From Eledone cirrhosa (lineage: Eukaryota): a DNA stretch of 64,000 nucleotides. A model generated the notes under the pieces. The model saw only the letters and a program-made list of their open reading frames with translations. It did not search any database and had not been told where the DNA came from. Below are positions 1,762 to 55,018 of the stretch, in pieces; position 1 is the first letter of the stretch, and each line of letters begins with the position of its first letter. The DNA is taken from assembly GCA_964016885.1 (NCBI GenBank), contig OZ024742.1, positions 190,402,001-190,466,000 of the forward strand, read 5' to 3'. The translations under genes were made by a program, and so were the position numbers.

Positions 1762-2160
1762 TATTAATAAAAGGAATTCCAACTTTGTCTGATTTACTCG
1801 TTTTATTTACAATCCTTTAAAATTATAATGATATTATAATGAAATAGTATGGTAGAATATTAAATGTTAAATGTTAATTGAACAAGTACTTTCATGCTTT
1901 CGCAATCTTCAGGTTCATATTCAGTGGTGACAGTCAAGTTTGCAATTTTCAACTCTGAAATTTGCAATTGAAAATTGCAAACTTGACTGTCACCACTGAA
2001 TATGAACCTTAAGATTGTGAAAGCATGAAAGTACTTGCTCAATTAACATTTAACATTTAATATTCTACCATACTATTTCATTATAATATCATTATAATTT
2101 TAAAGGATTGTAAATAAAACAAGTAAATCAGACAAAGTTGGAATTCCTTTTATTAATATA
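1762..2160. mobile_element. Fold-back inverted repeat of HHR element family B (arms ~190 bp, ~14-nt spacer)
   Basis: 1762-1952 is the reverse complement of 1967-2160 with about 4 mismatches. Each arm carries an HHR. Confidence 0.85.
1880..1916 (-). ncRNA. Minimal type I hammerhead ribozyme (family B)
   Basis: Minus strand gaac-CTGAAGA-t tgc gaaa gca t-GAAA-gtac-TT-gttc. The plus-strand twin at 2004-2040 has a mutated core (CTTAAGA). Confidence 0.85.
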
Positions 2161-2207: not shown

Positions 2208-2258
<51 letters not shown>

Positions 2259-2262
<4 letters not shown>

Positions 2263-2862
2263 AAAAATTTCGTATTTCTAAAGAAATACGGTTTTAGGAA
2301 GCCATAGGATTGACTGGCCTGAATTGCATAGACGGTTGTCCTCCTTGCTTCTGCTGGACACCACCAGAGGGCGTCACCCCCCCCCCGTGTTTGCATAGCT
2401 ACGGCTTCCTAAAACCGTATTTCTTTAGAAATACGACATTTCTATACATATTGTATAAAGCTATGCTTGAAGCGAAATCTTATTTATTTTCTATTATAAG
2501 TTGAGCCAACTTATGCAGCTTCATATGGAAATGAGATTAATCCCCTCATTTACACAGACGATTTCTTGACTGATTTCATGTCCAGCAGTAGCAAGCGGTG
2601 GGAGGGACCGTCCTGACGAAGTCCAGTCAAGCCTGAAATGCATAGACGGTTGTCCCCCTTGCTTCTGCTGGACACCACCAGAGGCGTTAGCCCTCCCCCT
2701 CCCCCCCCGGTGTTTGCAAAGCTACGGCTTCTTAAAACCGCATTTCTTTAGAAATTCGAAATTACTATACATTTTGTATAAAGCTATGCTTGAAGCAAAA
2801 TCTTATTTATTTTCTATTATAAGTTGAGCCAACTTATGCAACTTCATATGAGATTAATCACC
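2259..2862 (+). mobile_element. Non-coding HHR mini-element, family C: inverted 5' stub plus ~1.7 tandem units of ~315 bp
   Basis: 2317-2545 is repeated at 2632-2862. 2259-2308 is the reverse complement of ~2397-2447. Second locus at 18297-18810. Confidence 0.8.
2607..2650 (+). ncRNA. Minimal type I hammerhead ribozyme (family C)
   Basis: accgtc-CTGACGA-agtc cagtcaa gcct-GAAA-tgca-TA-gacggt. Confidence 0.85.
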
Positions 2863-3449
2863 TAATTCGCTTAAAAATATTTCTTAAGTAATTAAAATAT
2901 AAAACAAATATGTCTCTCTTTCAATCTACTCTCTCACAACCACTATCTCTTTCTCTCTATCTTTCACTCTCTCTATTTATGAAGGTACCGGAAAACTCCC
3001 TTTTTATGAAGGTATCTGAACCCGTACTTCGATTTACGCGAAACTCGTTTTATTCCATTTGTATTTCAGGGGCAATTTCCTTTCAAAGTATTTTCCTATT
3101 TTGTTTTGGCTGTATTAAATTACAGACAAGCACACAATCACAGTTGTAGTAGTATATTGATAGATAGATAAATTCAAAATAAATAAACACCACCAAAAGC
3201 ACTACCACACTACTACCACCACCACCACCACACTAATACAAAGACCACCACACCATCACCACCCTCAGCCACTACATATTTTAAACTCCTGTCAATTAAT
3301 TAAACAAAAGCACAACACCAACAAAAAGCGCCCCCCCCCACACACACACACAGCCGAAGGGTTCAAAAGGTGATGTAGGAGATGGAGAACTTTGTCGTTC
3401 TTTACAGAAGATAAAAAAACATTTGTTGTTTCAAAGTAAAACATATTTT

Positions 3450-5225
3450 AATGGGATATATAGAGGGAAAGAGAATTTGGTGGTTTAGTGAGAGGGGGCA
3501 TTGTGAGAGAGTGTGAGGTATGTAGGGAGATATAGAAAGAGGGAGATAATTTGTTGGTTTAGTGAGAGGGTATTGTGAGAGTGACAGAGAGTGAGGTATG
3601 TAGTGGAATATAGAGAGGAGGAGAGAATGTGTTGGTCTAGTGAGAGAGGGGGAATTGTATGAGAGAAAGAGAGAGTGTGTGTGGCATGTAGCAGAATATA
3701 GAGAATGGGAAAGAATTTGTTGGTTTAGTGAGAGAGGGAGAATTAAGGCAGTGAAAGATAGTGAGTTATATAGTAGAATAGAAAGCGGGGAGAATTTGGT
3801 GCTCTAGTGAGAGAGAGTGGGGTATTAGTGGCATATAGAGAGGGGTGAGATTTTATTAGCTTATGAGAGAGGTGAGAGTTTATTAGCCTAGTGAGAGTGG
3901 GGAGTTAAGAGGGTGAAAGAGAGTGAGGTATGTAGTGGAATATGAAGAGGGGGAGAGAATTTGTTGGTTTAGTGAGAGAGAAGGTATTGTGAGAGTGAGA
4001 AAGAATGAGGTATGTATTGGTATATATAGAGAGGGAGAGAAATTTGTGGCCTAGTGAGAGAGGGGGAATTGTGAGCGAGAGTGAGGTATATAGTGTGATA
4101 TAGAGAGAGGGAGAGTATTTGTTGGTTTAGTGTAAGAGGGGAATTAAGACAGTGAAAGAGAGTGAGATATGTAGTGAATATGGAGAGGGGGAGAATTTGG
4201 TGGACTAGTGAGAGAGAGGGAATTGTGTGTGAGAGAGAGGGAGTGATGTGCGTAGTAATGGGGAGAGTTTGTTGAGAGAGGGGTAATTGTTAAAGAGAGT
4301 GAGGTATGTAGTGAGATATAGAGGCAGAGTGAATTTGGTGGTGTAGTAAGAGAGGGGGAATTTTGAGAGAGAGAGTGAGGTATGTAGTGGTATGTAGAGA
4401 GGGGGAGAGAATTTGGTGGTCTAGTGAGAGAGTGGGAATAGTGTGAGAGAGTGAGGTATGTAGTAGGATATAGAGAGGGAAGATTGATTGGTGGTCTAGT
4501 GAGAGAGGGGGAATTGTGAGAAAGAGTGAGGTATGTAGTGGTATAGAGTGAGGGGGAGAGAGTTTGTTGGTTTAGAGAGAGAGAGGGGGGAATTAAGTGC
4601 GTTGAAGAGAGTGGGGTATGTAGTGGATATAGAGAGGGGTAGAGAGTTTGGTATTCTAGTGATAGAGGGGGAATTTTGAGAGAGAGTGAGGTATGTAGTA
4701 TGATATAGAGGGTGGGAGAGAATTTGTTTGTTTAGTGAGAGAGGGAGAATTAAGAGAGTAAAGGAGATTGGGGTATGTAGTGGATATAGGGGTAGAGAAT
4801 TTGGTGATATGGTGAGAGAGATGTAATTGTGAAAGCGTTAGAGACTGAAGCATGTAGTGTGATATAGTGGGGGAGAGAGAGTTTGGTGGGATAGTGAGAG
4901 AGTGGGAATTACGAGAGTGAAAAAGAGTGAGCTATATACTGGTATATAGAGAGGGGAGAGAATTTGGTCATCTAGTGTGAGAGGGGTAATTGTGAGAGAG
5001 TGAGGTATGAAGTGGAATATAGAGGGTGGAGAGAGTTTGGTGGTTTAGTGAGAGAGGGGAAATTGTTAGAGAGAGTGAGGTATATAGTGAGATATAGAGA
5101 GGGGGAGGGAATTTGGTGGTCTAGCGAGAGAAGGAATTGTGAGTGTGAGGAATGTAGCGGTATTTAGAGGGGTGAGAAAGGTATATTGTTTTAGTGAGAG
5201 AGAGGAAATATTTTGAGAGAGAGTG
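3450..5225. repeat. Diverged purine-rich minisatellite, ~60-bp unit, about 28 copies
   Basis: Recurrent gagagagtgaggtatgtagtgg..atatagagaggggg.agaatttggtggtctagtgagagagggggaattgt. Confidence 0.9.
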
Positions 5226-7761: not shown

Positions 7762-9340
7762 GTTTTTTTCTTACCGCAGGCGCCTGAGGATAACCCTCAG
7801 TAGCGCTAGACAGGTGTGTGGGAGACGCACGAGTTCATCCATGTTGGAGCCGAGTTGGTGGTGATAACAATCCACCACCAAGGCCGGACATCTCATCCAA
7901 AGATGTTCGGAGGATTCTTCTTCCTCTCCGCACAGACGGCATGTGTTTATTTCCGCTTGGCCGATCATATGGAGCCATCTCCTTAATGACGTGTGATGTC
8001 TACTGTGGAAGCGGACGAGATGGTTCCTATCTGCTTTGGAGAGAGTTTGCTCACTCTCTTCATTTGGGTGGCGGCTAAAGACTGATTGTTGACGTTGATG
8101 CTGGATCAGTGGTGGGCGAAATTCCCGGCAAATGACGGCGCGTTGGGTGGTGGCATCGATTGAACTTTCCAGCCTGGGGAGCCGTACTCGGTCAGGCTGC
8201 GGTGCACTGCGATGTATACTTGACGAAGATCTTCGGTATGCCAGCCCCAGGAGGTACCCTCCAAGGATGCGCAGGATATTGACGCGCTGTTGAAGTTTTT
8301 GGCAGATCTTTTTAACATGTTCCACAAAGGAGAGTGTCCTATCATATGTGACGCCCCAAAAGACGGGATTAGCGTTAAAGGATAGTCTTACCTAGTCAAT
8401 AGTAAAATTTGGTTGCCGCCTCGCTTCTGCACTGGATGTTCCAAAGAAGGTTGTCTCGCATTTTGTTGTGTTAATTGGGAGTTTAACTTCTTTACTCCAT
8501 GCTATCACTTTATCCACTTCCTTTTGTAACCGTTGCACTATTTCCTGCTTTTTCTTACCGCAGCACGCGATAGCAAGATCATCGGCGTATGCGCTGCTGA
8601 CATGTGTTGTGTTGTCGAATTGATCGAGTAGACCATTTATGAAGATTGTGAATAGCATTGGTGAAAGGATGGAACCTTGTGGTAGCCCTTCTTTAAACAC
8701 GCGACTGCGACCAGTGGTCCCATTAATTCGGAATCTTGCTATACGGTTTATAAACCTGGCGGATAACCACTCGATGAAACGCAGGGGAATGCCAAGCCTC
8801 ATCATATCTTGCAGCAGTCTTGTTCTCCACACACGATCATACGCACGGCTAAAGTCGAAGAATGTAGCAACGATGCGGTTTCAATCCAACGAATGGAACC
8901 CATCTTAAATGAACTGGGACAATCGGAGGCACTGATCGGTGGTGTTGCGCCCCTTTCTGAAACCAGATTGCCAGGGGCTAAGAATGGAGTGTTCCTCTAG
9001 CCACAAAGTTAACCAGTTCACAATCAAACGCTCTAAGAGCTTCCCTATCGTTGAGGTTAGCGCAATTGGTCGATAACTCCCCACGTCCGCCGGATCTTTC
9101 CCTTTTTTATGAAAATGGACGACAGTCGCCATTCGCCAATCTTGTGGGCACCAATTCTCCAACCAGCTGAAATTTAGTAGGTCTAACAATGTTTTTAAGG
9201 CCATTGTTGGTAGGTGTTTGATGAGATCTGGTGCTATCTGGTCGGGACCAGCCGCTTTCCCAGCTTTTATTTTGTTCAATGCTTTCTGTGGTTCGTCGAT
9301 AGTGAAGGCTGCTTCAATCTTATGTCTTGGTGAATTTCGA
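7762..9340 (-). pseudogene. 5'-truncated, frameshifted non-LTR retrotransposon ORF2 (RT + C-terminal CCHC), I-group/Ingi-like
   Basis: KAAGPDQI, SYRPIALTSTIGKLLER, QSGFRKGR, GLPQGSILSPMLF, AYADDLAI, CRLCGEEEESSEHLWMRC across several frames; short simple-repeat tail. Confidence 0.9.
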
Positions 9341-9427
9341 GCTGCTGCTGTTGCTGCTGCTACTACTACTACTACTGCTACTGCTACCACCACCACCACC
9401 ACCACCACCACCACCACCACCACCACC

Positions 9428-9465
<38 letters not shown>

Positions 9466-10053
9466 AAAAACAACAAGAACAACACACATTTTTCCATACT
9501 AATATTTCTAAAAATTCAGTTATAAAAAGAGGAAGACATGTTTAGTAAATGGCTAAAAGCTATGATAGCTACTAAAACACATCGAATATGGTGACGGGAA
9601 CCAATTGTCTGTTTTTTTAAATTTCCAAATTAACACAGATTTTTTCCATATATAGAACTAATGCTAGGTTTCTTATTTTAACTTTGTTTTGTTTGCTTCT
9701 ATATTTTTGTAATTTTTTTTATTATATTATAATTTTATTAATTTTTATTAAATATTAAAAAAAAATTTTTCGTTCTTGTCAAATATAAAATAAATTTGGA
9801 TTTCCGAATATTTATTTTTTATTTTTTTCACTCTTCTATGTTTTTCTCTTTTTTTTTATATTTGTCTCTCTCTCTCGGTCTTACATTTTCTTTCTATCTC
9901 TCATATTCTCTCTCTATGTCCCCCCTCTTTCTCTCGTTCGCCCTCTCTCACACATCTTCATTTCTCTCTCTGTTATATATATTTCAAACACACTCACCCA
10001 CTAATATCACGAATATATATTTATATTTGAGGAGACATGTATATAGAGATATA

Positions 10054-18284: not shown

Positions 18285-18296
18285 CACACACACATA

Positions 18297-18810
18297 TAAA
18301 TTTCGTATTTCTAAAGAAACACGGTATGTTTACTGGGTAAACATTTAGGAAGCCGTAAGCTATGCAAAAAACACCGGGGCTTACGCCCTCTGGTGGTGTC
18401 CAGCAGAAGCAAGGGTGACAAACGTCGATGCCTTTCAGACTTAACTGGTCTTCATCTGGACGGTCCCTCCCACGCTTGCGACTGCTGGACTTGAGAACAG
18501 TCGAGAATATATAGTTTTCTCGTCTGTGTTAATGATGTGATTAATCTCATTTGCATATAAAACTGCATAAGTTGGTTCAACTTATAATAGAATAGAAGTC
18601 CAGCAACCGCAAGCGTGGAAGGGAACGTCCTGATGAAGTCCAGTTAAGTCTGAAATGCTTCTGCTGGACACTATCAGAGCACGTAAGCCCCTGTGTTTTT
18701 TTGCAGAGATACGGCTCCTAAATTTTTACCCTGTAACATACCGTGTTTCTTTAGAAATAAGAAATCTCTACACATATCTGTATACAGCTATGCTCGAAGC
18801 CAAATCCCAT
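18297..18810. mobile_element. Family C HHR mini-element, two copies in inverted orientation
   Basis: 18297-18595 is minus sense (core CAGATGA, mutated). 18598-18810 is plus sense (CTGATGA at 18630, cleavage site deleted between tgc microhomologies). Confidence 0.8.
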
Positions 18811-19208
18811 TTCTATATATACTATGTACATACATAGGCACACAAATGGACGCCCATATTCGCACACATACCCATACATTCACATTGTAATTATGTCGGA
18901 ATGCTGAGCTCGATAACAAGATGAAAGACGTAAGAAATTGGTCAGCGTGCAGTAAGACAATTAATTCCTGCTCTCAAAAAACAACAACATCAAAATCAGC
19001 AACAACTAGTAGTTTTAGCGCTGTCGCCGCTACCACCACCACCACCACCACCACCACCACCACAACAACAACAATAACAACAACTGCAACAACAGCAACA
19101 TGTATTAATGAGTAAAATTATAAATATTGAATTAGTTTCCATAGTAATTTTATAATAGATTTTAATCCTTTAAGCACACAAAGGAAAGAAAGAAGACAAA
19201 GACGAAGA

Positions 19209-33237: not shown

Positions 33238-33982
<745 letters not shown>

Positions 33983-34857: not shown

Positions 34858-37110
34858 GAAAAACCGAAAATAATTAACATTTCAAATACAAACCTCTCAG
34901 CCCAACATGTAAAAATTCTCTCCAAAGGTCTGAAATTCACACCAACACCACAATACCCTAACCCCAACGAGATAAATGACGATATCTCACACTTCTGTAG
35001 AAAATTACGTCTCACAGAGGAATTCTTTGACAAGGAGAATAACGACGAATCAATTGTACGGAATAAAAGCAGCTACAACCCAACAAAAGGTAGAAACAGA
35101 GTTCTGGACAAATTTTGTGACCACATAGCTACCTTCCCATACCATGAACTACCGCAACCTAAACCCAAACCCAACACAAGTCGAAGGGAATGGGAGATTA
35201 TCCATGAACTAAAAAACAATACGGACATTGTAATTAAGGAAGCGGACAAGGGAAGTACTGTTGTCATTATGGAGGCTGAAAAATATAAAAATTCTATGTT
35301 CTCTCTCTTACAAAATGCTAATTACTATGAAAGAGTAAAAAACTACCAGCAATCAAAAATAATGACCAAATTAAACACACTGATTTATCGATACCAGGAA
35401 GACCTAACTAAAAATGAACGCGATTATTTAACAAATTTTGAATACAAAACCAGCAACCTTTACGGACTTCCGAAGATCCACAAATGTAAAATAATCAACG
35501 ATGCCTGTAAACAATCCACCTCTACCTGCGTGAACACACAATACCCCACAGACCTTAAATTAAGACCAATTTTAGCGGGCCCACAATGTGAAACACACAG
35601 ATTGAGCAACTTTATAGACATACTACTGAAACCAATACTGAAACACATACCAAGCCTTGTAAGAGACGATCTGGACCTCTTAAACCACCTCCCCAAACAT
35701 GTCAACAACGACACTATTATTGTGTCTTTCGATGTAGTGAATCTCTAGACAACGATCCCACACCAATACGGACTAGAAGCAATAGGATTCTGGCTAGAGA
35801 AATATCCCAATGAGATACCTGACAGAATAGAAAAAAGCTTCATCACCGAGGGATTAAAATTCATCCTACAGAACAACTTTTTTGATTTCGATGGCAATAC
35901 TTACAAGCAAATATCGGGGACTGCGATGGGCACAAAAGCCGCTCCAACTTATGCCAACTTAGTCATGGCATACTTAGAAGTCCAGATATATGAACAGTCC
36001 AAATCAAAATACGGATTGAACTTCCACAAATATTTATCAGAGAATTGGAAACGCTACTTGGATGATTGCCTCATTCTTTGGTCCCACACACTCGACCAAC
36101 TGAAGGATTTCAAAAACTTAATAAACGGCATCAATAACCACATCCAATTCACAATGGAATACAGCCAAGATCAACTCCCATTTCTGGACATCTTAATCAC
36201 AAAAAAAGACACAAATATCGAAACTGACATACACTACAAACCAACAGATTCCAAACAATATCTGCTATTCACCTCCAACCATCCAAAGCACACGAAGACG
36301 AACATTCCTTTTAACCTAGCAAGAAGAATTTGCACAATTGTCTCCAATTATGAAACGCGAAATAAAAGACTTCAAGAATTAAAGGAAATTCTACTTGAGA
36401 GAGAGTACCCACTATTACTAATAAATAATGGAATAGAAAGGGCTAAAGCAATAGGCATTGATGAATTACGGAAACAGAAACAAATTCAAGGTACGTCCAA
36501 TATTCTATCATATATCTCAACACACAACCCAAGAAATGCGGAAGCTTACAACACTATTCACAATAACATCCCACTACCAAAACAAACCCCAAGAATGAAA
36601 AAAGCCCTTGAAACACACAAAATAATCAAAAGCAAAAGACAACCAAAATCACTGAAAACATTACTCACCAATGCCAAATTACCTACCACAAACCCACAAC
36701 CAAGTATCAAAAAATGTGGTCGCTCTAATTGTGGAACCTGCACTCACCTCATTGAAGGCAACACGTATACATTTAAATCAGGACAAAATTTTACTGTAAA
36801 AAATCACTTCACTTGCTCATCAAAAAATCTAATTTATGCCATTAAATGTAAAGGATGCAATGAAGATTATATAGGACAAACTAAATTCACACTCAGAAAC
36901 AGAATGACAGTTCATCGCGAACAATTACGAGATCCAACCACGAGACAGATACCACTAAGTGCACATCTAGACATTTGCGCAAGTAATAAGACACCCAAAT
37001 TCCAAGTCTTCCCATTTTACCTTTGCGCTAACAATACAACAGAACAAATGCGAATAAATAAGGAAAATATGTTTATTCAAAAATATAGACCAACATTAAA
37101 TAAGGTTTAA
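34858..37110 (+). pseudogene. Penelope-like element ORF (RT + Zn linker + GIY-YIG), Naiad-like, one in-frame TAG at 35746
   Basis: IINIS..LSKGLKFTPTP, IKEADKGS, LYGLPKIHK + ~24-aa insert + RPIL, SFDVVNL*, GTAMGTKAAP, RYLDD, CGRSNCGTC, LIYAIKC..C.EDYIGQT. The 413-aa and 394-aa ORFs are in the same frame. Confidence 0.95.
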
Positions 37111-53956: not shown

Positions 53957-54880
53957 ATATCTTTAAGTCGTTTGGAAGCCTCGACAATGCAAATGGGTAA
54001 ATCTCCGGGTAACAAGGTCCGGTGGTGGAGAGAGAGATGTAAGTGGGTGTACGTTGAGATGCGTGGTGTGTATAAGATGTGTGAGATGTGTAGAATGAAG
54101 GGAAGAGTATAAAGGATAAAAATAAAAATAACAACACAAGAGAGAGTTACCTTGGGAGAGATTTAATAGTCCCTATATATTTCGGATTCACATCCATCAA
54201 CTGGGTTTTTTTTCCGGGGTGGGGGAAAAGGTTGTCTGTCGGACAAGTCCGGAACGTGTCTTTTGCTGTTTGTTGTTTTGAATATCTGAGGTATTCGGCA
54301 GAGCGCGCGTGCGCGTGAAATGGGGTCGGTCGTACAGAGGTCAGCGGCCGAATGAGGGAGTGGGATGGCGCTAGCTGTCAGTCCATTCTCTGCCTGTTTT
54401 TTAAATGTTACTGTGTGTGTGTGTGCGTGTGTTGTTGCCTTCTTCATCTGTATTGGCAGTGTAGTATGTTCGTATGGTGGAATGCTACTGTGTGTGCGTG
54501 TGTGTGTGTAGTTGTCTCGTTTGCGTGTGTGTGTGTGTGCGTGTGTTGTGTGTTGTTGCATCGCTTGTTAACTTAAACCAGCCATTTCATTTCGCTTCTC
54601 TCTGATCGGTTGTTTATTTGCGGTTGCAGTCGTTTGATAAAAAGCGCTTCCTTGATACGTAACGTGCCGACGTTTCTTTCAGTCGCTAGAATTGTGACAA
54701 TGGGCCTTCCGTCTTTGTTTCCGCATTTGTCCATGTGTTTCCGGAAAGACGAGGCCCTGGTTTTAGTGTGTTCCTTGATCCGGATGTGTAAAGGTCGAAT
54801 TGTGCTACCTATGTAGTATTGGTTGCACCTGTCACATTCTATCTTATACACGACGTATGTGCGTAGGCAACAGTTAGCAT
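53957..54880 (-). mobile_element. PLE family D, longest copy
   Basis: Shared 3' UTR plus the GIY-YIG coding segment. Confidence 0.9.
54573..54880 (-). pseudogene. PLE GIY-YIG endonuclease domain, 5'-truncated
   Basis: VVYKIECDRCNQYYIGSTIRPLHIRIKEH...HMDKC...LRIKEALFIKRLQPQIN. Confidence 0.9.
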
Positions 54881-55018
54881 AGTAATAATAATAAATTTGA
54901 AGACTAAAATCCAAATATATATATAATAAATATATATATATATATGTATATATACTTACATACATACTTACATATATACATACTTATATATATACACACA
55001 CACATGTATATATATATA

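What the first reader, a model, noticed from the sequence alone, without database searches (positions are those of the whole stretch)
2259..2862. Family C: ~315-nt retrozyme-sized monomer in 1.7 tandem copies
The first unit starts within the HHR (3' half at 2317-2337) and the next HHR lies ~315 nt later, so cleavage-to-cleavage would release a ~315-nt RNA. That is within the size range known for metazoan non-LTR retrozymes. It has the same inverted-stub-plus-tandem architecture as family A despite unrelated sequence. The second locus (18297-18810) is two copies in inverted orientation.
Basis: partly seen in the sequence, partly recalled or inferred. Interest (0 to 1): 0.7.

Follow-up and report, generated by a model that had tools for sequence, protein, structure and literature searches.

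The report
Penelope-mobilised 320-nt hammerhead retrozyme family
This is a damaged copy of a high-copy, ~320-base non-coding repeat that carries a hammerhead ribozyme motif and is likely pasted around the genome by the enzymes of a Penelope-type retrotransposon, a known kind of element whose likely helper can be pointed out here.

Summary
The repeat is real: an inverted stub, then 1.7 tandem units spaced 314 nt cut-to-cut. But this copy has one complete hammerhead (stem II mismatched) and one half-ribozyme with a core change, so release of a monomer from this locus is doubtful. The family is large (921 exact hits of a 31-nt ribozyme motif), closes on itself, and was continuous with a coding frame in 0 of 90 loci, so it is not merely a pLTR. 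Copies show the Penelope-like (PLE) insertion signature: variable 5' ends, (TA)n targets, inverted arms and two fixed 3' ends. In 34 of 36 inverted pairs with both ends canonical, one arm uses each end. The terminal ~120 nt resemble only one of four coding PLE families tested (z 5.2), sharing a motif that is that family's predicted start codon, and the long end lies 27-28 nt past it in both. Verdict: a new member of the known non-LTR retrozymes (non-autonomous PLEs), with a candidate helper clade and docking signal. Transcription, cleavage and circles are untested.

The parts
2216..2258 (.). (TA)n microsatellite, the inferred target site at the outer end of the inverted arm
   Evidence: 109 of 125 canonical family ends run into (TA)4+
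2255..2307 (-). Inverted 5'-truncated arm (unit positions 72-124) whose outer end is the short 3' end (S)
2306..2320 (-). Junction piece: reverse complement of hammerhead stem-loop II, where the inversion switches to the sense arm
   Evidence: sequence, position
2317..2337 (+). 3' half of a hammerhead only (GAAT in place of GAAA); equivalent cut position 2330/2331
2331..2644 (+). One full unit, cut position to cut position, 314 nt
   Evidence: folds with z -4.94
2391..2413 (+). Box 1 (TTTGCAT..GGCTTCC..AAA), shared with coding PLE family 3; repeated near 2714-2736
2463..2476 (+). Box 2 (ATGCTTGAAGC), matching the predicted start-codon motif of coding PLE family 3; repeated at 2786
2579..2673 (+). 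Complete type I hammerhead with long stem I extension: stem I 2606-2612/2645-2651, core 2613-2619, stem II 2620-2623/2631-2634 (mismatch at 2622), GAAA 2635-2638, 2-bp helix III, predicted cut 2644/2645
2645..2867 (+). Second, partial unit (to about unit position 218); runs past the usual long 3' end and is not followed by (TA)n
18297..18597 (-). Second locus, arm ending at the short 3' end; subfamily with a ~20-nt extra hairpin; hammerhead core changed (CAGATGA at 18458-18452)
18597..18812 (+). Second locus, arm ending near the long 3' end; core at 18630, cut site and 3' strand of stem I deleted

Best explanation
This is a decayed copy of a high-copy, ~320-nt non-coding repeat with a type I hammerhead motif (a non-LTR retrozyme) that is likely inserted by the reverse transcriptase-endonuclease of a coding Penelope-like element. 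Shown: the unit closes on itself, has fixed 3' ends at unit positions ~120-124 (S) and ~156-171 (L), variable 5' ends, (TA)n flanks and frequent inverted arms. Inferred mechanism: an RNA holding more than one unit length (an uncleaved tandem transcript or a ligated circle) is bound by the PLE protein at a two-part signal around box 2; the endonuclease nicks both strands of a (TA)n tract; one nick primes cDNA internally at L and the other at S; the two truncated cDNAs are joined head to head, giving an inverted pair with the tail on one arm only. The likely helper is the coding clade called family 3 here (RT plus C-terminal GIY-YIG, ~873 aa). The hammerhead has a 2-bp helix III with a palindromic loop and would cut well mainly as a dimer in tandem transcripts.
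For: Copy number: 921 exact hits of a 31-nt motif, reversed control 0; 2979 first-look candidates. Closed unit: 11 natural cut-to-cut monomers of 312-334 nt. Ends: 125 of 153 arms in 90 loci end at S or L; 109 of these 125 run into (TA)4+, against 4 of the 28 other ends. Inversions: 40 of 60 ribozyme-anchored loci; of 58 head-to-head pairs, 36 have both ends canonical and 34 of these are S+L (18 expected, p about 1e-8). This matches the two initiation sites, two-strand extension, AT-rich targets and predicted dimer of the anole PLE (PMC11167929) and the one-sided tail (PMC8557442). Ribozyme covariation: stem II AGGC/GCCT in 73 and GAAC/GTTC in 9 of 126 motifs, plus one compensatory stem I pair (a few loci overlap, so counts are slightly inflated). 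Helper: the family C terminus scores z 5.18 (0 of 1000 shuffles) against the family 3 terminus and z<=1.26 against six termini of three other coding families; box 2 opens the family 3 frame and homologues start at the same aligned position; median distance from this ATG to the (TA)n run is 27 (family C, 66 of 153 boxes have a run), 27.5 (family 3, 12 of 12) and 28 (other subfamilies, 23 of 30); S lies 15 and 13 nt upstream of it.
Against: No RNA evidence either way. The window copy itself is damaged and its outer 3' end is non-canonical. The helper link rests on ~110 nt of degenerate similarity first noticed by eye, against only four coding families in a genome with tens of thousands of PLE candidates; a closer parent may exist. 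Beyond the first four codons no trace of the family 3 N-terminus is detectable in family C. Long arrays are rare (1 of 60 anchored loci reaches 2 units), unlike satellite-like retrozymes. 28 of 153 ends are non-canonical.
Confidence: 0.82

Rival explanations
1. The unit is only the pseudo-LTR of a coding PLE, and most copies are its 5'-truncated remains.
For: The insertion signature is that of PLEs; pLTRs carry hammerheads; only 150 of 3663 candidates were scored in the frame search.
Against: Upstream of the ribozyme the sequence returns into the previous unit; 45 5' junctions without an inverted partner share no common upstream sequence other than family pieces and unrelated repeats. PLE frames within 3 kb of copies have their own termini or are separated by (TA)n. 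In 100 loci of four coding families, family C-like DNA appeared in 2, both beyond the element's own end. The one 855-aa frame was a different LINE inserted into the ribozyme.
Confidence: 0.07
2. A non-autonomous PLE that never forms circles: copies come from uncleaved transcripts of tandem master loci and the ribozyme is incidental to insertion.
For: Most arms read through the cut site; the anole PLE inserts from uncleaved RNA and ribozyme mutants do not matter in vitro (PMC11167929); 8 of 9 Xenopus dimers did not cleave (bioRxiv 10.64898/2026.07.22.740005); 14 of the 17 rare variants shared by tandem units lie in two loci that look like local duplications. This differs from the best explanation only in the RNA form.
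Against: Compensatory changes keep the ribozyme stems between subfamilies about 67% identical, which implies selection on the fold; monomers fold compactly as circles (z -2.1 to -6.3 in 11 of 11, 20 shuffles each); repeated 5' truncation should erode more-than-unit copies, yet 25 of 60 anchored loci have an arm of at least one unit.
Confidence: 0.4
3. A DNA-level repeat (MITE-like or locally duplicated satellite) whose inverted arms are terminal inverted repeats.
For: Inverted arms flank many copies; a few tandem units look locally duplicated (L003, L025).
Against: The arms differ in length from copy to copy, have unequal fixed outer ends (S versus L) and random inner ends; 20 of 60 anchored loci have no inverted arm.
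Confidence: 0.02

Closest known systems
Metazoan non-LTR retrozymes (Cervera and de la Pena 2020, PMC7229834; passages and Discussion read)
   Same: Canonical type I hammerhead in a non-coding ~300-nt tandem unit, GC about 45% or lower, monomer inside the 170-400 nt range; PLEs proposed as the helper.
   Different: Mostly dispersed copies of 0.5-1.4 units with inverted arms rather than long arrays; circles and expression not shown here; helix III is the short, amphibian-like type.
Non-LTR retrozymes as non-autonomous PLE derivatives (Li, Clavereau, Pollet, bioRxiv 10.64898/2026.07.22.740005; parts 1-3 of 5 read)
   Same: Same overall conclusion, reached in Xenopus from pLTR homology and co-occurrence.
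   Different: In the parts read there is no analysis of insertion ends, inverted arms or a shared docking motif; here the similarity is confined to ~110 nt around the helper's predicted start codon. By their criterion (two complete ribozymes) the window copy is not active.
Poseidon PLE of Anolis, PAc (Frangieh et al. 2024, PMC11167929; parts 1-2 of 4 read)
   Same: Two internal initiation sites bounding a tail, downstream of the hammerhead; AT-rich targets; both strands extended.
   Different: PAc is coding and its sites lie about 111-118 nt inside the ORF; here the sites straddle the start-codon motif. Its sequence file (.gbk) could not be read, so motif sharing with PAc is untested.
PLE insertion architecture and non-autonomous Chlamys elements such as MRC1 (Craig et al. 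2021, PMC8557442; passages read)
   Same: Partial tandems, inverted 5'-truncated copy, 30-40 bp tail often at one end only, (TA)n targets; non-autonomous elements resembling autonomous ones at their 3' ends.
   Different: Chlamys/Naiad lack canonical hammerheads; the tail here is about 40-47 nt.

Membership tests
Non-LTR retrozyme | Canonical type I hammerhead in the unit | tested here: met
   Core, three stems and covariation; 35 of 53 aligned rows pass an intact-core pattern; Rfam gave no hit
Non-LTR retrozyme | Short (about 170-400 nt) head-to-tail unit, low GC | tested here: met
   11 monomers of 312-334 nt, GC 0.40-0.45
Non-LTR retrozyme | No protein coding, not part of a coding element | tested here: met
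   0 of 90 loci continuous with an ORF; (sampled, not exhaustive)
Non-LTR retrozyme | Two complete ribozymes in tandem (active locus), in the family | tested here: met
   7 of 90 loci
Non-LTR retrozyme | Two complete ribozymes in tandem, in the window copy | tested here: not met
   Upstream ribozyme is a half with GAAT; lowers 'active locus', not family membership
Non-LTR retrozyme | Transcription, self-cleavage and circular RNA | not testable with these tools
   No run on record as RNA was offered
PLE-mobilised element | 5' truncation with fixed 3' ends and a tail | tested here: met
   125 of 153 arms end at S or L
PLE-mobilised element | Inverted 5'-truncated copy with the tail on one end | tested here: met
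   40 of 60 loci inverted; 34 of 36 canonical pairs are S+L
PLE-mobilised element | (TA)n target bias | tested here: met
   109 of 125 canonical ends versus 4 of 28 others
PLE-mobilised element | Shared 3' signal with an autonomous PLE in the same genome | tested here: met
   Family 3 only, z 5.18, same end spacing; a closer partner is not excluded
Autonomous PLE pLTR | Continuity with an RT + GIY-YIG ORF | tested here: not met

The most novel reading that the evidence does not exclude
The copies record how retrozymes integrate: a canonical-hammerhead RNA keeps only a degenerate two-part docking signal from a PLE (the region around the helper's start codon), and the helper primes both target strands at two different fixed sites, always one of each, on a circular RNA. 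That would name a helper clade and a ~110-nt transferable signal for animal retrozyme mobilisation and give genome-scale support for asymmetric two-site priming by a PLE dimer.
Probability: 0.35. Interest if true: 0.62.

Novelty: new member of a known kind. Interest (0 to 1): 0.4.

Why it matters
Which enzyme inserts animal retrozymes has been proposed (PLEs) but, in the papers read, not shown. Here the end geometry and a shared motif point to one coding clade with intact frames in the same genome, so the question can be tested in vitro with an existing PLE assay. The element class itself is already described.

Tried and rejected
Rfam: whole-window scan listed only microsatellite-driven miRNA matches among the 150 of 283 rows shown; no hammerhead among 6 matches in 2262-2900. 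Coding parent: a 30-aa frame of the unit hit an 855-aa open frame, which proved to be an RTE-type LINE (label recalled) inserted into a copy's ribozyme; seven other fetched loci with longer frames were read-throughs into flanks or neighbouring elements. ORF-remnant idea: a profile of 32 N-termini of the family 3 clade did not score family C. The near-intact PLE in the window (34858-37110) and two further coding families do not share the terminus. Rolling-circle test: units within a locus are closer than between loci (tandem 5.9% versus 9.3%; inverted 7.1% versus 9.4%), and share more rare variants (4.1 and 2.1 per kb versus about 0.5), but this does not separate circles from tandem masters, conversion or local duplication. 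Expression: no RNA holder listed; three runs of unrecorded kind from one sample gave only contigs, used only for the base at 2622. Constrained folding shows the complete ribozyme's stem I can pair with either cut-site strand at similar energy (-120.9 versus -118.8 kcal/mol), so cutting of the upstream site by the downstream catalytic half is not excluded. Earlier scan notes: nothing. Literature searches; none returned a description of this family, but only open-access text was searched and bioRxiv supplements were not visible.

Full report
Observation. The window lies in a 3.0-Gb, microsatellite-rich genome; the organism was not determined. After a (TA)n run, 2255-2307 is an inverted copy of 2399-2451, and 2317-2550 repeats at 2631-2867. 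Against a natural monomer the main arm is 1.71 units and the cut-to-cut distance 314 nt. The second locus (18294-18812) is an inverted pair of a related subfamily. A complete type I hammerhead sits at 2606-2651 inside a long stem I extension (z -5.28, 0 of 200 shuffles). The upstream ribozyme is only a 3' half with GAAT for GAAA, preceded by an inverted piece of stem-loop II. The complete one has a private stem II mismatch at 2622. Neither ribozyme of the second locus is intact.

The family. A 31-nt ribozyme motif occurs 921 times exactly, control 0; DNA searches gave 2979 candidates for this subfamily and 3367 for a sister about 67% identical (the sets may overlap). I analysed 90 loci: the 30 best matches to the window copy (biased to long copies; L001 is the window itself) and 60 taken in order along contig C1 from the first 100 listed motif hits (close pairs merged, one of seven copies of a regularly spaced cluster, one place already held). 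Eleven natural monomers are 312-334 nt, 40-45% GC and fold compactly as circles. Between subfamilies three of four stem II pairs and one stem I pair change compensatorily. Helix III is 2 bp with a palindromic loop, the type reported to need dimers (PMC4209133; PMC7229834). Seven of 90 loci have two intact cores in tandem; among the 60 anchored loci the longest arm has a median of 0.93 units, 25 reach one unit and 1 reaches two.

Insertion signature. 5' ends are scattered; 125 of 153 3' ends fall at unit positions 110-140 (S, mode 124) or 154-176 (L, mode 171), and 109 of them run into (TA)n, against 4 of 28 other ends. Forty of 60 anchored loci carry an inverted arm. Of 58 head-to-head pairs, 22 have at least one non-canonical end; of the other 36, 34 combine S with L (p about 1e-8), while unpaired arms end mostly at L (30 of 40). 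Partial tandems, an inverted truncated copy and a one-sided tail are the published PLE signature (PMC8557442), and two internal initiation sites with both target strands extended were shown for an anole PLE (PMC11167929). That two nicks prime one cDNA each, at S and L, is my inference from these.

Not a pLTR. No copy continued into a coding frame of its own: neighbouring PLE frames have their own termini, 5' flanks share nothing but family pieces and unrelated repeats, and in 100 loci of four coding PLE families (25 each) family C-like DNA occurred in two, both beyond the element's end. A frame search scored 150 of 3663 candidates; the only very long frame was another LINE inserted into the ribozyme. 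The test is a sample, not a census.

Candidate helper. Coding family 3 (873 aa, RVT_1 and GIY-YIG) also has two 3' ends about 45 nt apart. Its last 120 nt align with the family C terminus (z 5.18, 0 of 1000 dinucleotide shuffles), while six termini of the other three families give z<=1.26; the similarity was first seen by eye. The shared parts are box 1 and box 2; box 2 is the first ATG of the family 3 frame and aligns with the starts of its homologues, and recurs in further coding subfamilies (457 exact hits of one variant). The long end lies a median 27 nt after this ATG in family C, 27.5 in family 3 and 28 in the other subfamilies; the short end lies 15 and 13 nt before it. Four of five coding-clade loci checked carry a minimal hammerhead variant 130-138 nt before the ATG, close to the 132-141 nt in the window copy; family 3 itself has only a doubtful variant at 232 nt. 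No protein-level remnant is detectable past the first codons. The clade of family 3 was not assigned.

Mechanism, likely: transcript of more than one unit, cut by dimeric ribozymes and possibly ligated to a circle (untested); bound by a family 3-type protein at boxes 1 and 2 (inferred); two-strand nicking of (TA)n and priming at L and S (inferred); head-to-head joining of truncated cDNAs (end pattern shown). Units within a locus are more alike than between loci, but this does not prove a circular template.

Comparison and verdict. The family meets every retrozyme feature testable here; the window copy fails the two-intact-ribozyme criterion for an active locus. That retrozymes are non-autonomous PLE derivatives is already argued (bioRxiv 10.64898/2026.07.22.740005) and PLE help was proposed earlier (PMC7229834). 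Four searches of open text returned no account of this family or of such an end analysis in a retrozyme. It is a new member of a known kind; the added value is the quantified S/L asymmetry and a testable helper and signal. Interest 0.4.

Noticed in passing
window 34858-37110 (+): Near-intact coding PLE (RT, CX4CxxC linker, GIY-YIG; Neptune-like by the motifs in PMC8557442) with one in-frame stop at 35746-35748; many copies elsewhere have a 775-aa open frame and 97-98% identity, so the family is young.
   Followed up: partly
window 1765-2157: Long palindrome made of the terminus of coding family 2, which has the DKT and CxCX5C motifs described for the Hydra clade.
   Followed up: partly
window about 630-680 and 33492-33639; 32305 (-): Two further, unrelated hammerhead families; the 32305 type has a very long stem II and also occurs as inverted pairs in L147 and L268.
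   Followed up: no
L001 (window 2867), L018, L067, L045: Four arms end at unit positions 217-224, next to a short palindrome and without a (TA)n run; possibly a minor third end or chance.
   Followed up: no
L271, L255, L258, L259 (pLTRs); L155, L121: Coding PLE pLTRs carry minimal hammerhead-like motifs with altered cores (CCGAAGA; CAGTTGA or CAGAAGA by eye) instead of CUGANGA; activity unknown.
   Followed up: partly
L198 1961-5614 (-): Very young coding PLE family (99-100% identical C-termini) with a 1218-aa frame holding a long asparagine-rich insert.
   Followed up: no
G000:C1:143.35-143.80 Mb and C12:17.08-17.48 Mb: Family C copies recur at about 60-kb spacing on one strand, marking large tandem duplications.
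   Followed up: no
window 3452-5177; 7771-9498 (-); 54576-54914 (-): A ~76-80-nt GA-rich minisatellite, a broken LINE RT, and a GIY-YIG fragment of coding family 3.
   Followed up: no
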